From assembly GCF_009914755.1 (NCBI RefSeq), contig NC_060934.1: a stretch of DNA of 64,000 bases, one strand, 5' to 3'. The notes under the pieces are model-generated. The model saw only the letters and a list, made by a program, of their open reading frames with translations, did not search any database and was not told where the DNA came from. Positions 12,376-19,600 of this stretch are shown one piece after another. Within the stretch, counting starts at the first letter, position 1. Every line of letters begins with the position of its first letter. A program made the position numbers and the translations under genes. This DNA is from the human T2T-CHM13v2.0 reference genome, Homo sapiens.

Positions 12376-12690
12376 TGTTGCTATGGTCTGAATGTTGGTG
12401 TTCCTCCAAAATTCATATGTTAGAACCTAATACCAAATATGATAGTAGTAAGAGGTGATGCGTTTTGAGAAGAGCCCTAATGAATAAGTTTAGTGCCCTA
12501 ATGAAAAGAAGTCAAAAGGAGCTGCCTTGCCCTCACTGCCACATGAGGACACCCCAAGAGAGAACCATCCTGCCTCAGCCTCCTGAAGTACTGAGGTTAC
12601 AGGTGTAAGCCACTGCACCCGGCCAATAAATTTTTTTTCATAAACTACTCAGTCTAAGGTATCTTGTTACAGAAACCCAAATGAACTATT
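12376..12690 (+). mobile_element. MaLR LTR (MST/MLT1A-type) with an internal antisense Alu fragment at 12569-12624
   Basis: The LTR starts tgctatggtctgaatgttggtgttcctccaaaattcatatgtt and ends cagtctaaggtatcttgttacag. Its interior is replaced by ctgcctcagcctcc...ccactgcacccggcc. Confidence 0.8.
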
Positions 12691-12780: not shown

Positions 12781-13060
12781 ATTTTTAGTAAATTATATTT
12801 CTCTATGAAAAGTTTGATTTGTTTTCATTGGGATTATGTTTTCTTAAATAATATGTTGAGAACAAAATCTTAGTGGAGACCTATTTCTGAAAATGCAATT
12901 TAAATAAATGGTAAAATACGATTATTAGCAAATTATATTTCTCTATGAAAAGTTAGATTTGTTTTAATTAGGAAAATGTTTTTAAAAATGATGTGTTGAG
13001 AACAAAACCTTAGTGGAGACCCATTTCTGAAAATGTAATTTAAATAACTAGCAAAGTATG
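12781..13060 (+). repeat. Tandem duplication, 2 x 140 bp
   Basis: 12781-12920 aligns without gaps to 12921-13060. A manual count gives 20 mismatches in 140 (about 86% identity). Confidence 0.95.
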
Positions 13061-13138
13061 ATTCACTTTACAAAAAATGTTACTTTATACCAAATTATGT
13101 TAAGGAAATTATTTACTGTTTAAAATTTTTTCACACAG

Positions 13139-13157: not shown

Positions 13158-13947
13158 GTAAAAATCTATACACAATATCCTTTAGTCATTAGTTGAATGT
13201 GCACCAAAGCCACCATTTTCAATCAGAGGGATCACAAATTACTTCTCAGTTTCAGGTATTTTATATGAATATTTTCACAGTAATGCAATGAGAAAGTTAA
13301 TTTAATTAGCCCTATTTACCATTTGGGATACAAAATTGAGAAAAGAACATGTGCAAGAACACACATCTAAAAGCGTTAAACATGCATTTCTCCACCTTGT
13401 GCTATAAGAACAAAGCACATACGCTAATATTAGATGAATCATGATTCTTTCTTACTTCTGCAAGAGCTATCACATATATGAATCATTAATTTCAGTTTCA
13501 AATGATTTAAATAGAACTCAGAAAGATTCTGTGAGTCATGAGAGTCTCTAACTTAGTGATTTTACATCTTATCTCCATTTTCCTACAAGAAAACAGTTCT
13601 AGATTGCAGTCCATATCCCCCATATTTGAAAATGTATGTTACTTAAGATTTTCAAAGGATTATATAAAATAGTGGAGCCAAATAACTCACTTACTGTGCT
13701 CATAAAATGCCAGTCATTAATCTTCTAAACATACATGGTGGTGAGTAAGAAACTTCTGTCCATTAGTTGTTGGAAAAAATTAATGGCAGAGCTGAAATTC
13801 ATTTCTGATGACTGGCAACTTTTGTTTTAAAATCTTTTTATTTTTCATTTTTTAAGAGAAATTGCCTTTAAGTTTGTCAGCCTAGTAGCTCTGTGTTGCA
13901 TATAATAAAGAGGAAGCTTTATTTGTTTTAATATTCATTGTTAATAT

Positions 13948-14172
13948 TAAAGGTCAGGAAACTTTTTCTGTAAAGTGTCAGACAGCAAATACTTTAGGCA
14001 TTGTGGGACATACAGTGTCCCTTGCAACTACTCAGCTCTGACATTAGATCATGAAAGCAGCCACAGACAATGTGTAAATGAATGTGTGGCTGTGTTCAGC
14101 AAAACTTTACTTACAAAAGCAAGCAACAGGCTGGATTTGGCCCACTCAGCTGTAGTTGACAACTTTTGATCT
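13948..14172 (+). mobile_element. MER58A-like hAT/Charlie MITE
   Basis: About 220 bp: ggtcaggaaactttttctgtaaag...caactactcagctctg...gctggatttggccc. Confidence 0.8.
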
Positions 14173-14613
14173 ATATTAGGACAATAGTCACAAAACAGTA
14201 GAGAATATAGGAAACGTTCTATGCCAAGTTTAACAAAGAATAAAAGTTCAAAGACCTTTTAAATAAGTTTTTAAAAATATTCATAGTTTTATTATTCAAA
14301 TTAATTCAATCAGAGAATTTGAAATTTCGACCATAATTTAATATCAGAGTTAATGATTTTTACCATATAATTGTTTTCCTTATTATACTTTACTTTATTC
14401 TTATTTTCATTGTAACTTCAGAAAATAAAACTTGATTTTGGACCATACCAGTATAAAAGCCCCAAAGAGTTAAATTTATAAATTATCAGTATACTCTCTT
14501 GACATTTTGTTACTAAGTTCAAACAAGAAATGTGCTGTAACAACTGTGGTGAAATAATAATTTCAGTTCCAGGGAATCACAAAATGAACTTGTCCCCATA
14601 AATATATGATGAG

Positions 14614-14848
14614 TTATTGATTATCCTAACTTTGTTAAAACTCCAACCTTCCCTGGTTTTCATCTCAATGGTATAATGAGTTCTAAACATTTATCAACTG
14701 AGTTTGGAACCACAGAGATATTAGTGTAGATCTCATCTTTGTCATCTTGTGAACCTGAGCAAATTACTTAACCCAAGTCAGTGAGTTTCTTCATCCATAA
14801 AACTAGGTGCTTGTATCTTCATTCAACACCCCCGCTTACACTGTTGTT
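14614..14848 (+). repeat. Inverted repeat, left arm (contains MIR sequence)
   Basis: Reverse complement of 16370-16604. No indels and 4 mismatches in 235. Perfect match over 14672-14848. Confidence 0.97.
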
Positions 14849-15246
14849 ATTAAAGAATAAATAAGAAATAAATTCACTAAGAAATAAATTCAGTGGTCAA
14901 TGCTAAAATATAACAGTTTGAGACTTAACAATACAACATCACTAGCTCTTTCTTGTGTATTGAGGTACTTCAAGGGAATCTTTATAAGAGAGTTAAAGCC
15001 ATGGAAATGCACATGGACACACATGATTTCAACATCATTCTCCTCTTGGTGCTGTTACATGGCTAGGCTCAGAGTTCCTTCTCAAAGGAGGCTAAATTCT
15101 CATGATTCCACAAGACAAGTCTATTTCCTGTAACGGCCTTTGCTATTTCTCATCTCAGCCAACGAGCTCTACAGGAGTTGGTCACTGCACAGTCAATTAG
15201 CCAACCCCATGGCTCACATTATTGATTACATGTGAGCATTTGATTA

Positions 15247-15322
15247 CATTGAGATTATGTTTTCTTAAATGATATGTTGAGAACAAAACCTTAGTGGAGA
15301 CCTATTTCTGAAAATGCAATTT
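15247..15322 (+). repeat. Dispersed 76-bp third copy of 12826-12901
   Basis: cattgagattatgttttcttaaatgatatgttgagaacaaaaccttagtggagacctatttctgaaaatgcaattt has 3 mismatches against copy 1. Confidence 0.95.
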
Positions 15323-15649
15323 TCAGAATTGCAATTGATTATTGCTCCATGTTCTAGAACTTAAATATGCCCCTATATATTTATTTGCTTTTGAAAAAGT
15401 AGAAACTGTTTCCTCAGCGGACCACAGAAAAAAACACATATGTTGTACACATGTTTGTTATTAGGCAGAGTCTAATTCTGTTTCATACTGCCTTCATTAT
15501 TGATTTTGCAAATCTTCCCCTTTACTCTTGGTTCATTCACTCTCACATTTGGACTGACTTAAGCCCCATCTTCTGTTTTTTTTTTTTCCACTTTTCCAAT
15601 TCTGTTTTGTATGCCAAAGCACTAACACTCACACTTATGTAATTAGGCC

Positions 15650-16290
15650 AACAAACATGTATTGAACATACTAGGTTTCAGGCTCTATGAAAAGAACTGG
15701 GAGCAAACATACAGTCCCTCATGGAGAACATACCTAAATGGGAAGACAGATAAGCAGAACTAATGGTTAAAACATAATGTATGCATTAGATAATACTGAA
15801 CCACTTCAGAGTGAGATCTAACTCTGTCTGTTTTGGGAAGAAGTAAGAAGGATATAATGGTGAGCTGAATCCTGAAGAACATACAGAAGTTTTCCAGGCA
15901 GAAAAGAGTGTTCCAAGTAGAACATGAGTCACATGCGATGACATGGAGCTGTGTGAGTGCACAGAGCAGTCTGGGAACTAGGATCATTCAACATGGCCAT
16001 AGTAAAGGGCGAAGGAAGCTTTTGTGGTTAATGTGGGCAGAGATGAGCCTGGGTCACATCAGGTTTAGGAGTTTGAGCCGTTTATCTGACAGGTCACTGG
16101 ATTCCACTGATGAATTTTAAGAAGGATGGTGATATGATCAGATTTGCATTTTGGAAAGCCCCTAGGTGGAGAGTAGAATGAAGCCATGAGAGATTGAAGG
16201 CAGGGGGGTCAGGTGAGAAGGCCGCTGCAATAATTCAGAGAGGAGGGCCTCAAGTTATGGCAGTAGTAGTGCAGATAGAGAAAAGGGGAA
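15650..16290 (-). mobile_element. L2 fragment
   Basis: Antisense L2 motifs: caacaaacatgtattgaacatacta, tgatatgatcagatttgcattttggaaag. Confidence 0.75.
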
Positions 16291-16369
16291 CCAAAATGGA
16301 ACTCTTACGTGGATCCTATTATTTTACTATGTGCCAGGTACCAGGCTTTAACTTCATAAAATCCTTAAA

Positions 16370-16604
16370 AACAACAGTGTAAGCGGGGGTGTTGAATGAA
16401 GATACAAGCACCTAGTTTTATGGATGAAGAAACTCACTGACTTGGGTTAAGTAATTTGCTCAGGTTCACAAGATGACAAAGATGAGATCTACACTAATAT
16501 CTCTGTGGTTCCAAACTCAGTTGATAAATGTTTAGAACTCATTATATCATTGAGATGAAAACCAGGGAAGGTTGGAGTTTTAATAAAGTTAGAACAATCA
16601 ATAA
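16370..16604 (-). repeat. Inverted repeat, right arm (antisense MIR running into L2-like sequence)
   Basis: Reverse complement of 14614-14848. MIR-like sequence continues leftwards (tactatgtgccagg at about 16325) and L2-like sequence continues rightwards to about 16760. Confidence 0.97.
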
Positions 16605-19600
16605 TATCAAGTGCTGCAACAAAAGTTGAAAAAAAAATACCTGAGCAAAGTTCAAAGAATTAGGCAGTCATATATGGCGTCATAGGAAGGTAGTTTCCAA
16701 GTAGCCAGGAGGCTCGAGTCAGATGGCATAGGGAAGAGAAATGAATGAGAGGTGAGATGATGTGTAAACCTTAAGACACTTAGCAATAATAAAAATAAAG
16801 TGATCCTAAATATTCTGTAGCTTCCCAATTGCTTTCTATAGATTGTGTCTCAAAATAGTGAACTACTCAAAGTAAAGGGTAGTTACCCCTGCCTAGAATA
16901 ATATCTGGCAAATAGCAGATGCTCCCTAAATATTTGTTGAGTGAATAAACTTTCATCCTTAGCACTGATTCAGAAAAGAAACTAGAAATACTTAAAGCAT
17001 ATGTTTTGGACACAGATCTGTTGATGATGTCCAGCCCCAAAGGAAAAGTATCCATTCACTACTGTGTTTAAGGAATCTCTTATGCTCCCTTAAAAGTGGG
17101 AGAGAATGTCAGTAACAGGAAAATATGAAGTCAGATTAACTGTCTGAGGTCATATAATGCATCGAGGTGGAGGGTTGAGACAAAGGTTTCCTGGTTCCCA
17201 CTCAAAAGCTTCCAGATACCTTGCTCCCATATCCTTCTGCTCTAGTAGTAAATGTCTTTCTTTCTTTGATCTTTTCTTATGCTCTGCTCTTCACTAATCT
17301 TGATCTTATGTCCCAGCTCTGTTAATAGCTTTTGATGGCCTGAAGCTTCTTTCATTTATCACATGTGCAAATTGGAACTTAATTCCCAACATTACCTGAC
17401 ATGCATCCATTCACTTATTCTACAAATATTAAGTGCCTTTGTGCTAACAACATTGCTTCTGGCACTGTGAAAATAGCAAAGGACAGCGTGTTTCCCTCTC
17501 TCATAAAGCTAAGTCTACTTTTAAGGATTTCTCACCTACTTGGTATTATACCTACTGGATTTTACATCAACTGGATCTTACGTCATCCCTGCTTTGTGTT
17601 TGTGGTCTTCCTCCAGGCAGCTGACCAAATGCTCGCTGTTCTATTTGTAGCTAGGTCCAAACTATTAAGCATCACTGAGGTGAAATGATGGGGGTTGTAT
17701 TTTCCACTTAATTTTAAAGGCCTCTTCCTTCCTCTTTCAGATAACTCTTTTCAGATATCTTCAGTGGTTCTTTGGTTGACAGATAGGATTTGTTTTCATT
17801 GTCTCCAATCCTTCTGCTCAGAAATGTTTCAATTTATGAGTGGATCTGCCCTATTTTATTCTCTATTACTTTTGAGGGCAGTGAAGAAGTTTTCCTATGT
17901 CAATACTTCCTACTCATCATTTGAGTATAATAGGTAAACTACTGAGAACCTGGACCTTATTTTGTTCCTCTAATTTTATCTTTTGTACCAAAAATAAACA
18001 GCCTTCACAATCACATCTGTACCAAAATTAAATACATGGGAAACACTTTCTATCTGAAGGTATTAATATAAATATCATGTCATTTTCTTATTTAGGTTGT
18101 TTCTAGTATACATACTTTCCATTTTAAAGACATTTTAGGAAGTTTTTGTTTGTTTATTTTTTGACACCTCTTCACCATGAAGCAAATATTCTGAATCTAT
18201 GTGGTCTTCTGTTAACTTGTCTTTAGAGATTGTATCATTACCATTGCAAGAGTATAATAAAAACAGGCTTTCTGTGAGCATACGAAAAAAAGTGGTAAAA
18301 AAAAAAAGTCCTAGAGTTGACAAAACATGAGAGATTAGGAAATTTGAATGGCTTCATTTTAGGAATGAGGAAACCAGGTTGGAAGGATGAGGCTGTTATT
18401 TAAAGACTGGTGTTAGGGTATAGTTTCCATTTCTTTTCTTTACAACTGCTCACATGATGGGATCTTATTGCAGTATTTCTATGTGTGTGTATATATAACT
18501 CTTATCAGATTCTTGAAGAAGATTAAAAACTACCATTTGAGACTATTGATTTTAGAGTTCAGCTTGGACTATGATGCCCTCTTATGTGAAATCTGAAAAT
18601 ACATTTATGGATTTTGCTCACTGTGTGCATGGAAAAATTGCAAAAGCAGAAAGGCCCTTTTGAAGTTAACAATCAAATGTGGCCACTGGCAACCTTTTGG
18701 AGCTTTTTGACTCTTATTTGAATAATATATAAGATGGGAGTTGGAAGTATTGTTAGTATTGAGAAAATTTTCTTGCTCCAGAAATGGTCCGTTCTATCAA
18801 CCTGCCCATTAGGGATTCATTTAGTTAACCAAAATTGTTTTTTAAATTGATTATAATTTGTTCACCAGATTGATTCTGTGCCTCTCACATCTACTGCAAT
18901 GAATAAATAGAAGTTTGGTCTTGGCCAGGGAGGAATTCTTTTGAGAGGAGCATTCAGGAAGTCAGCCTGTGGGTATCTAGAGCTCTGAGAAAGATGGGTA
19001 GAGAGAAGACTGAAAAGGTGCCCCAAAACTCTGGGTTTTGATGCTGCCTTCAACCAAAATACTGCTTATATTGAAAGAAAGCGCACAGATACTGTATGTG
19101 TGAGCTCTTAGCAGACAATGCTCCTGGCATGTAGGATGGTCTTGCTTTGAACAAAGATACTCCAGGGTGTTGGAAAGGTAAAAGATTCACTGAGGATCAG
19201 GGTAAACATTCCTGAGCATATGGGCAAATGAACCTGAGAAAGGGTTTTGTGGAATGCTAAAATATTTATTTCTCCTTGCCTATAAACAATGTCAGCTCCT
19301 AACCTCTCCCCAAATAAACAATTGATGTTGGGAATAACTGGAGCTCATTAAGAAGGTTAGGAAAGGTATATGGCATTTGAAAGAACTGGCATTCAAGAGT
19401 GCATTGAGGTTGTGTTTACTTCAAAAGACAGATTATTAATTTTGACTGAATTGGCTAGACTGATGATTTCTTATCCAAAACAAAATCTCAACCATCCTAT
19501 TTATTAGACTGGTGCTTTTTTAAATGACTTTTTTCCCCCCTCAACAAACTGGTCAATATAGTGAATATAGTGACACTGGTTTGTGTATCTATAGAAAAAC

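What the first reader, a model, noticed from the sequence alone, without database searches (positions are those of the whole stretch)
14614..16604. 235-bp near-perfect inverted repeat made of ancient MIR/L2-type sequence flanking a 1.5-kb potentially invertible segment
Seen: 14614-14848 is the ungapped reverse complement of 16370-16604. All 4 mismatches are transitions in the outer 58 bp, leaving a 177-bp perfect core. The spacer is 14849-16369 (1521 bp). Known: independent MIR or L2 copies are heavily diverged from each other, so two separate insertions cannot explain this identity, and close inverted repeats are substrates for recurrent inversion and gene conversion. Inference: a perfect core with diverged edges suggests a local inverted duplication later homogenised by conversion or repeated flipping. 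The spacer could therefore be a polymorphic or recurrent micro-inversion.
Basis: partly seen in the sequence, partly recalled or inferred. Interest (0 to 1): 0.8.

Follow-up and report, generated by a model that had tools for sequence, protein, structure and literature searches.

The report
Small fixed inverted duplication in RNLS intron
A 235-base piece of an old repeat plus its neighbouring sequence was copied backwards 1.5 kb away inside an intron of the human RNLS gene, which is a common and ordinary kind of small rearrangement with no sign so far that the segment between the copies flips.

Summary
14614-14848 is the ungapped reverse complement of 16370-16604, with 4 transition mismatches, a 177-nt perfect core and a 1521-nt spacer. 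The pair is unique in the genome.

The arms are about two-thirds a MIR-type ancient repeat (name recalled) and one-third non-repeat flank. They are therefore a local duplication, not two separate insertions. The repeat runs on past the inner edge of the right arm but not the left, so the right arm is parental and the left arm is a truncated inverted copy.

This matches the commonest "inversion-type" variant class in the 1000 Genomes map: stretches under 1 kb inserted inverted within 5 kb of the source. My best mechanism is fold-back or template-switch repair synthesis without any inversion of the spacer. The main rival is a footprint of one staggered-break inversion.

The perfect core with diverged edges is non-random (P about 0.017, or 0.002 if the tract is 243 nt). 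It fits arm-to-arm gene conversion, but error-prone synthesis near the junctions fits too.

No inversion is listed at this locus in a T2T-coordinate call set (abstract: 41 genomes) or in a human-chimpanzee list. Low interest.

The parts
14614..14848 (+). Left arm: the derived, truncated inverted copy (non-repeat flank plus the 5' and central part of a MIR-type repeat).
   Evidence: Searches give the identity to the right arm. In one search the profile match ends at profile position 192 (window 14856). In one search the 60 nt inward of this arm show no similarity to the repeat family beyond shuffles (85 of 300 shuffles reach the real score).
16370..16604 (-). Right arm: the parental copy, part of a longer MIR-type repeat on the minus strand plus its flank.
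   Evidence: In one search the profile match covers 38-238 = window 16516 down to 16331, which is 39 nt past the arm's inner edge. In one search the 60 nt inward of this arm resemble the 3' parts of 20 independent copies (206 against a null of 176.9 +/- 8.2; 0 of 300 shuffles reach it).
14849..16369 (.). Spacer of 1521 nt. It holds unique sequence, an 85-nt local duplicate (15238-15322), an L2-type fragment (name recalled) and the 3' end of the parental MIR-type repeat.
14672..14848 (+). Perfect 177-nt core (its partner is 16370-16546).
   Evidence: Searches give the chance of so long a perfect run.
14614..14671 (+). Outer 58 nt holding all 4 mismatches (its partner is 16547-16604). Three of the four lie within 21 nt of the outer junction.
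   Evidence: In one search, 4/58 against 0/177 gives Fisher P = 0.0034.
14849..14856 (+). Eight nt just inside the left arm that match 6 of 8 with the reverse complement of 16362-16369. This is either an imperfect priming microhomology or the diverged inner edge of a 243-nt tract.
   Evidence: In one search the chance of >=6/8 is 0.007-0.013, while the outer junction matches only 1 of 8.
16331..16516 (-). Parental MIR-type repeat as aligned to the 20-copy profile (envelope 16311-16536).
   Evidence: 38.8 bits, E = 9.5e-13.

Best explanation
This is a small, apparently fixed inverted segmental duplication, and as far as can be seen it is inert.

A 235-243-nt stretch was copied in reverse orientation and inserted 1.5 kb upstream, between what are now positions 14613 and 14849. 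The source was 16362/16370-16604: the 5' two-thirds of a MIR-type repeat plus about 70-90 nt of its unique flank. The spacer was never inverted.

Inferred mechanism: a break at 14613|14849 was repaired by fold-back (snap-back) or template-switch synthesis.
1. The 3' end at 14849 annealed to its own strand 1.5 kb away, at an imperfect 8-nt inverted microhomology.
2. It copied about 235 nt.
3. It was joined to the other end without homology.

After that, one of two things produced the perfect core with diverged edges. Either the arms diverged and the central 177 nt were re-homogenised by arm-to-arm gene conversion, or the edge mismatches were introduced by error-prone synthesis at the time of the event.

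Consequences today: a 232-bp duplex can form in RNLS pre-mRNA, and 177 nt of perfect inverted homology could in principle support rare inversion. No function is indicated.

Shown: the duplication, its uniqueness, its direction, and the mismatch pattern. Inferred: the break site, the priming step, the absence of an inversion, and the age.
For: - Identity and geometry.
- Only two copies in the assembly.
- The arms combine repeat and non-repeat sequence. The 17-mer count is 760 against 2 for the control. The profile built from 20 independent copies starts matching only at 14702, envelope 14682.
- Direction: the repeat continues past the inner edge on the right only. The right continuation scores 0 of 300 shuffles and the left 85 of 300. 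A 15-mer of the right continuation is found in 4 of 20 family copies.
- The inner junction has 6/8 inverted matches (chance 0.007-0.013). The outer junction has 1/8.
- No target-site duplication.
[quoted passage not shown] That is exactly this geometry.
- Replicative repair (BIR/MMBIR) is described as error-prone, with point mutations at rearrangements (passage read). Here 3 of 4 mismatches lie within 21 nt of the outer junction.
- No inversion call at the locus in the T2T call set or in the human-chimpanzee list.
Against: - No outgroup or second human haplotype could be examined, so the orientation of the spacer before the event is inferred, not seen.
- The 6/8 inner match can equally be read as the diverged inner edge of a 243-nt tract. 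In that case it says nothing about priming.
- In the priming model the 3'-terminal base would have been mismatched (worked out from the sequences printed).
- The profile-score advantage of the right copy is small (38.8 against 36.3 bits). A search of the continuations alone with the profile found nothing on either side, so the direction call rests mainly.
- Snap-back insertions described for end joining are, as I recall, usually much shorter and closer to the break than 235 nt at 1.5 kb.
- The absence of this locus from two published lists is weak evidence. One used a 2005 draft chimpanzee assembly, and the position in its build was derived by me from a shared landmark.
Confidence: 0.5

Rival explanations
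1. Footprint of one staggered-break inversion. The ancestral order was flank - arm - (spacer reversed) - right flank. A staggered break across the 235-nt arm, together with a second break 1.5 kb away, was filled in and rejoined with the middle piece inverted. This left the arm duplicated in inverted orientation at both ends. On this reading the repeat is the result of an inversion, not its cause.
For: The geometry is what this model predicts. In Drosophila, 17 of 29 fixed inversions carry such inverted duplications. Their median is 321 bp, with a range of 46 bp to about 1.9 kb, and 12 of the 17 are duplicated from one breakpoint only (passages read). The requirement that the repeat be continuous across 16369/16370 is met. 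Neither outer junction shows homology.
Against: In human data the same geometry is mostly a plain inverted duplication. The 6/8 inverted match between the two ends of the spacer is not predicted by end joining of a staggered break. No human-chimpanzee orientation difference is listed here, although an older inversion would not show up in that comparison.
Confidence: 0.25
2. The repeat pair is an active substrate: the 1.5-kb spacer flips recurrently or is polymorphic through homologous recombination between the arms, and this, with the associated conversion, keeps the core identical.
For: There are 177 nt of perfect inverted identity only 1.5 kb apart. The clustering of mismatches at the edges is non-random (P = 0.017; 0.0024). 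The outer-edge divergence (4/58) equals that of a neighbouring 85-nt duplicate (5/85; Fisher P = 1.0), as expected if the pair is old and its core was later homogenised.
Against: There is no call at chr10:89.29 Mb among 373 inverted regions in the T2T call set (abstract: 41 genomes), although chr10 calls of 338, 357, 977, 1560, 2168 and 2562 bp were made. None is found in the human-chimpanzee list. As I recall, validated repeat-mediated human inversions have much longer repeats, from several hundred bp to many kb. Gene conversion does not require inversion. Only 4 mismatches carry the whole argument.
Confidence: 0.08
3. Terminal inverted repeats of a DNA transposon, or two independent insertions of the same repeat.
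For: Inverted arms flank a 1.5-kb body, and the arms contain a dispersed repeat.
Against: Only these two copies exist in 3.1 Gb. There is no target-site duplication. The arms include 68-88 nt outside the repeat profile. Independent copies of this repeat are far more diverged: the best is 79% over 75 nt.
Confidence: 0.01
4. Assembly artefact (a chimeric fold-back read built into the assembly).
For: None was found. The possibility stays open only because reads could not be inspected.
Against: The arms differ at 4 positions and are separated by 1.5 kb of unique sequence, unlike a fold-back chimera. The T2T-versus-GRCh38 orientation table that was read lists no discrepancy here.
Confidence: 0.02

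Closest known systems
'Inverted Dup' class of human structural variants (1000 Genomes phase 3; PMC4617611, passages read)
   Same: A stretch under 1 kb is inserted in inverted orientation within 5 kb of its source, and is not associated with retrotransposition. Here the stretch is 235-243 nt at a distance of 1.5 kb, and it is not a transposon insertion.
   Different: Those variants are polymorphic. This one is in the reference and appears fixed and older (1.7% arm divergence). Its mismatches are confined to the edges.
Inversion-associated inverted duplications from staggered breaks (Drosophila; PMC1885836, passages read)
   Same: An inverted duplicate of non-repetitive sequence flanks a segment. 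The size is within the reported 46 bp-1.9 kb range, and only one breakpoint is duplicated.
   Different: Those flank inversions of many kb to Mb whose inversion is shown by an outgroup. Here an inversion of the 1.5-kb segment is not shown.
Inverted-repeat-mediated recurrent human inversions (PMC3961182, passages; PMC10150506)
   Same: High-identity inverted repeats bracket a segment. Exchange is expected within the stretch of highest identity.
   Different: Both orientations have been seen for those inversions and none has been seen here. As I recall, their repeats are far longer.
Sex-chromosome palindromes kept identical by arm-to-arm gene conversion (recalled, not looked up)
   Same: Inverted arms, a unique spacer, and identity higher than the age would suggest.
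   Different: Those arms are kilobases to megabases long and gene-bearing. This one is 235 nt and intronic, and conversion is only suggested by 4 mismatches.
Short template-switch mutations and MMBIR/fold-back rearrangements (PMC4352052, passages; PMC3907307, title and abstract in the listing)
   Same: An inverted copy of nearby sequence, a junction with little or imperfect microhomology, and point differences near the junctions.
   Different: Short template switches, as I recall, involve tens of bases within a few hundred bases. Disease-associated fold-back duplications are kb to Mb in size.

Membership tests
Local inverted (segmental) duplication | Two copies in inverted orientation, near each other, with no other close copies in the genome. 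| tested here: met
   only two copies in 3.1 Gb. The next best match is 79% over 75 nt.
Local inverted (segmental) duplication | The duplicated unit crosses the boundary of a transposable element into unique flank. | tested here: met
   the profile of the repeat matches from 14702 (envelope 14682). The outer 68-88 nt are duplicated but lie outside the profile.
'Inverted Dup' variant class (1000 Genomes) | Duplicated stretch <1 kb, inserted inverted within 5 kb of the source. | tested here: met
   (235 nt, 1521-nt spacer) against the definition.
'Inverted Dup' variant class (1000 Genomes) | The allele without the insertion has the spacer in the same orientation. | not testable with these tools
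   No other human haplotype or primate orthologue is held.
Template-switch / fold-back repair product | Microhomology at the priming junction. | tested here: inconclusive
   6/8 at the inner junction (chance 0.007-0.013). It could instead be the diverged edge of a 243-nt tract, and the 3'-terminal base would be mismatched.
Staggered-break inversion footprint | Inverted duplicate of breakpoint sequence at both ends of the segment. | tested here: met
   The size lies within the range quoted.
Staggered-break inversion footprint | An outgroup shows a single copy and the opposite orientation. | not testable with these tools
   No outgroup sequence is held. The human-chimpanzee list has no entry here.
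Repeat-mediated polymorphic or recurrent inversion | Both orientations are observed among haplotypes or species. | tested here: not met
   This was tested only through published lists. There are 0 calls at the locus among 373 regions, 20 of them on chr10, and 0 in the human-chimpanzee list. Rare alleles are not excluded.
DNA transposon with terminal inverted repeats | A multi-copy element with a target-site duplication. | tested here: not met
   two arms only; the flanks differ.
MIR-type ancient repeat (content of the arms) | Similarity to many dispersed, diverged copies. | tested here: met
   760 against 2; E = 1e-12 to a profile of 20 copies. The family name MIR is recalled, because no repeat library was available.

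The most novel reading that the evidence does not exclude
At only 235 nt, the pair behaves as a miniature palindrome. Its core is kept identical by ongoing arm-to-arm gene conversion, possibly with occasional flipping of the 1.5-kb spacer over primate evolution. Its 232-bp near-perfect duplex in RNLS pre-mRNA is a non-Alu substrate for double-stranded-RNA editing or sensing, in a gene that I recall as a type 1 diabetes risk locus.
Probability: 0.07. Interest if true: 0.5.

Novelty: new member of a known kind. Interest (0 to 1): 0.2.

Why it matters
The practical importance is small. The locus is a clean reference-genome example of the commonest "inversion-like" variant class. Its source and copy can be told apart from sequence alone, and its junctions are well preserved.

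It could serve as a test case for three questions:
- whether such inverted duplications arise with or without inversion of the spacer;
- whether 200-nt inverted repeats 1.5 kb apart undergo gene conversion;
- whether a long non-Alu intronic duplex is edited.

None of these would overturn current understanding.

Tried and rejected
- Repeat annotation without a library was difficult. blastn of 13900-17400 against the rest of the window found no other copy of the arm's repeat. Single-sequence nhmmer found none. A pairwise alignment with the one distant genomic copy gave no usable boundary. I therefore built a profile from 20 genomic copies.
- Searching the two 80-nt continuations alone with that profile gave no hit on either side, which is uninformative.
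- Own-genome searches of both flanks and the spacer found no repeat family spanning any junction. The ancestral adjacency could therefore not be read from a split element.
- Literature searches:
  - 'RNLS' + 'inversion' returned 48 papers. The 15 listed were irrelevant by title and abstract.
  - 'RNLS' + 'RNA editing' + 'dsRNA' returned 3 papers, none about this locus by title and abstract.
  - The supplement of the 65-genome study (PMC12350169) gave only unrelated numeric matches and was cut when stored.
  - The supplement of the ape T2T paper (PMC12058530) was not readable.
- Rfam found nothing in or near the repeat.
- Transposon termini, independent insertions and assembly artefact were considered and rejected (see the rival explanations).

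Full report
**Observation**

The inverted repeat is exactly as described. A position-by-position comparison shows that 14614-14848 equals the reverse complement of 16370-16604 over 235 ungapped positions. There are four mismatches: 14623/16595, 14625/16593, 14634/16584 and 14671/16547. All four are transitions, and none is in a CpG.

The perfect core is 14672-14848, paired with 16370-16546 (177 nt). The spacer is 14849-16369 (1521 nt). The repeat finder extends the pair to 243 nt at 98%, because 6 of the next 8 inner positions also match. Beyond the outer edge only 2 of 24 positions match.

In the whole assembly the arm has three matches: itself, the other arm, and a 79% match over 75 nt on another chromosome. 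A 281-nt query from the right side gave the same three. In the 64-kb window, 20 self-matches reach E <= 1e-10. Only two of them have at least 90% identity over at least 80 nt, and this pair is one of the two.

**What the arms are made of**

No repeat library was available, so I tested the repeat content against the genome itself. A 17-nt stretch of the arm (14757-14773) occurs 760 times at up to one mismatch (373 forward, 387 reverse). The same letters read backwards occur 2 times. It is therefore the conserved core of a high-copy dispersed repeat. I recall that core as MIR, but the name comes from no call.

I fetched 20 of the exact-match sites, aligned them and built a 275-position profile.
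- The left arm matches profile positions 38-192 at 14702-14856 (36.3 bits, E = 5.5e-12; envelope 14682-14879).
- The right side matches positions 38-238 at 16516 down to 16331 on the minus strand (38.8 bits, E = 9.5e-13; envelope 16536-16311).

Two things follow. First, the outer 68-88 nt of each arm lie outside the repeat but are still duplicated. The pair is therefore a duplication of a locus, not two insertions. Second, on the right the repeat runs 39 nt (alignment) to 58 nt (envelope) beyond the inner edge of the arm into the spacer. On the left it stops at the edge.

Because the score difference is small, I tested this second point separately.
- The 60 nt inward of the right arm are more similar to the downstream parts of the 20 copies than any of 300 shuffles (summed local score 206, null 176.9 +/- 8.2).
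- The 60 nt inward of the left arm are not (206, null 201.2 +/- 8.2; 85 of 300 shuffles reach it).

A 15-mer from the right continuation recurs in 4 of the 20 copies at up to 3 mismatches. The left-continuation 15-mers tested recur in at most 1 copy. A search of the continuations alone with the profile found nothing on either side, which is uninformative.

I conclude that the right arm is the parental sequence and the left arm is a truncated inverted copy. A short family match lies at 16096-16158, with 4 hits of 79-87%; the name L2 is recalled.

**Junctions**

There is no target-site duplication around the whole unit or around the left arm.

The outer junction shows 1 of 8 matching positions. 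The inner junction shows 6 of 8: 14849-14856 against the reverse complement of 16362-16369. The chance of 6 or more of 8 is 0.007-0.013 from random local pairs.

The inner match can be read in two ways. It may be an imperfect microhomology at which a 3' end at 14849 primed on its own strand 1.5 kb away. Or it may be the diverged inner edge of a 243-nt tract.

**Which known kind this is**

The 1000 Genomes phase-3 structural-variant paper states that only 20% of sequenced inversions were simple and that 54% were inverted duplications. [quoted passage not shown] The present structure is a 235-nt copy placed inverted 1.5 kb from its source, which fits that class exactly.

My best explanation is therefore a templated inverted insertion by fold-back or template-switch repair synthesis, with the spacer never inverted.

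The main rival is the staggered-break model. In that model an inversion leaves an inverted duplicate of one breakpoint at both ends. In Drosophila, 17 of 29 fixed inversions show this, with a median duplicate of 321 bp and a range of 46 bp to about 1.9 kb. Twelve of the 17 are duplicated from one breakpoint only (passages read).

Both models require the repeat to be continuous across 16369/16370, and it is. They differ in which outer junction is ancestral. I could not decide that, because own-genome searches of both flanks and the spacer found no repeat family spanning any junction. The families found lie only at about 13941-14163, 16096-16158 and 16889-16956.

**Perfect core with diverged edges**

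With four mismatches placed at random in 235 positions:
- the chance that all four fall in a given terminal 58 is 0.0034;
- the chance of a perfect run of at least 177 anywhere is 0.017;
- if the tract is 243 nt with six mismatches, the chance of such a run is 0.0024.

The pattern is therefore probably not chance, although it was noticed after the fact and rests on very few sites.

Two explanations fit.
- *Gene conversion.* The pair is old and the centre was re-homogenised between the arms. In support, the outer-edge divergence (4/58) equals that of a neighbouring 85-nt local duplicate (5/85; Fisher P = 1.0).
- *Error-prone synthesis.* The edge differences were introduced when the copy was made. 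Replicative repair is described as error-prone, with point mutations at rearrangements (passage read). Three of the four mismatches lie within 21 nt of the outer junction.

The two explanations give different ages. I assumed rates of 1.0 and 0.5 x 10^-9 per site per year (assumed values, not from a call).
- The whole arm gives 8.6-17 million years.
- The outer 58 nt alone give 36-72 million years.
- The perfect core implies identity within the last 8.5-17 million years (95% bound).

**Is the spacer a polymorphic or recurrent inversion?**

I could not examine other haplotypes or species directly, so I used published lists.

[quoted passage not shown] The abstract says 41 genomes, and Table S1 has 44 sample columns. 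Coordinates were lifted to T2T v1.1/v2.0.
- A search of its three supplementary files for numbers beginning 8929 found none.
- Listing all chr10 rows gave 20 calls in Table S1. The nearest are at 88.19-88.31 Mb and 92.327-92.329 Mb.
- Those rows include assembly-based calls of 338, 357, 977, 1560, 2168 and 2562 bp. An event of this size was therefore within reach of the method.

*Human-chimpanzee list (PMC1270012).* This list holds 1,576 putative inversions from 23 bp to 62 Mb (abstract).
- To place the locus in its build, I used an inversion in HECTD2 that appears in both papers. It is at 93,193,325-93,195,766 in this list and at T2T 92,326,942-92,329,385 in the other.
- That landmark puts the locus near 90.16 Mb. 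This conversion is my own inference.
- No number beginning 9015, 9016, 9017 or 9018 occurs in its eight supplementary files.

*Limits.* These absences argue against a common polymorphism and against a human-chimpanzee orientation difference. They do not exclude rare alleles or older flips. The supplement of the 65-genome study gave only unrelated matches and was cut when stored. That of the ape T2T paper was unreadable.

**What it can do now**

The window lies in an intron of RNLS, on the minus strand (hub annotation). In either transcript orientation the two arms can pair over 231-232 of 235 positions, with a predicted energy of about -416 kcal/mol. With shuffled partners the energy is about -92 kcal/mol. 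In the RNLS-sense RNA, two of the four mismatches become G-U pairs and two become C-A mismatches.

A duplex of this length is the kind of substrate that double-stranded-RNA editing enzymes act on (general knowledge). I found nothing in print about this site: 'RNLS' + 'RNA editing' + 'dsRNA' returned 3 papers, none relevant by title and abstract. Rfam has no match in or near the repeat.

The 177 nt of perfect inverted homology 1.5 kb apart could in principle support rare recombination. No function is indicated.

**Verdict**

- The local inverted duplication is right, and its direction can now be given.
- Homogenisation by conversion is plausible but has an equally good rival.
- The invertible-segment idea has no support in the two lists that could be read.

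This is a new example of a well-known and common kind of small rearrangement, so interest is low.

Noticed in passing
window 12781-13063 and 15238-15322: A 140-bp tandem duplication (1.9 copies, 86-88% alike) lies 1.6 kb upstream of the left arm. An ungapped 85-nt direct copy of its first unit sits inside the spacer. That copy is 94% identical to unit 1 and 85% to unit 2, with 5 mismatches, 3 of them in the first 15 nt. These three places are the only copies in the genome. With the inverted repeat, that makes three local duplications of different ages within 4 kb. They account for both of the window's only two self-matches above 90% identity over 80 nt.
   Followed up: partly
window 14862-14892: A perfect 16-bp tandem duplication (1.9 copies, 100% matches) begins 14 nt inside the inner junction of the left arm. 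It could be a slippage footprint of the same repair event or a later, unrelated event.
   Followed up: no
window 13941-14163: A high-copy dispersed repeat of about 200 nt. The first look found 2415 candidates, of which 40 were scored: the window itself, the other arm, and 38 copies at 74-80% identity. It ends about 450 nt before the left arm. The family was not named.
   Followed up: no
window 16889-16956: A short dispersed-repeat core of about 55-60 nt with 17 matches of 80-94% on other chromosomes. The family was not named.
   Followed up: no
window 12556-12623: A weak match to the signal-recognition-particle RNA model on the minus strand (27 bits against a gathering score of 70, E = 4.6e-4). 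This is what an Alu fragment gives (inference).
   Followed up: no
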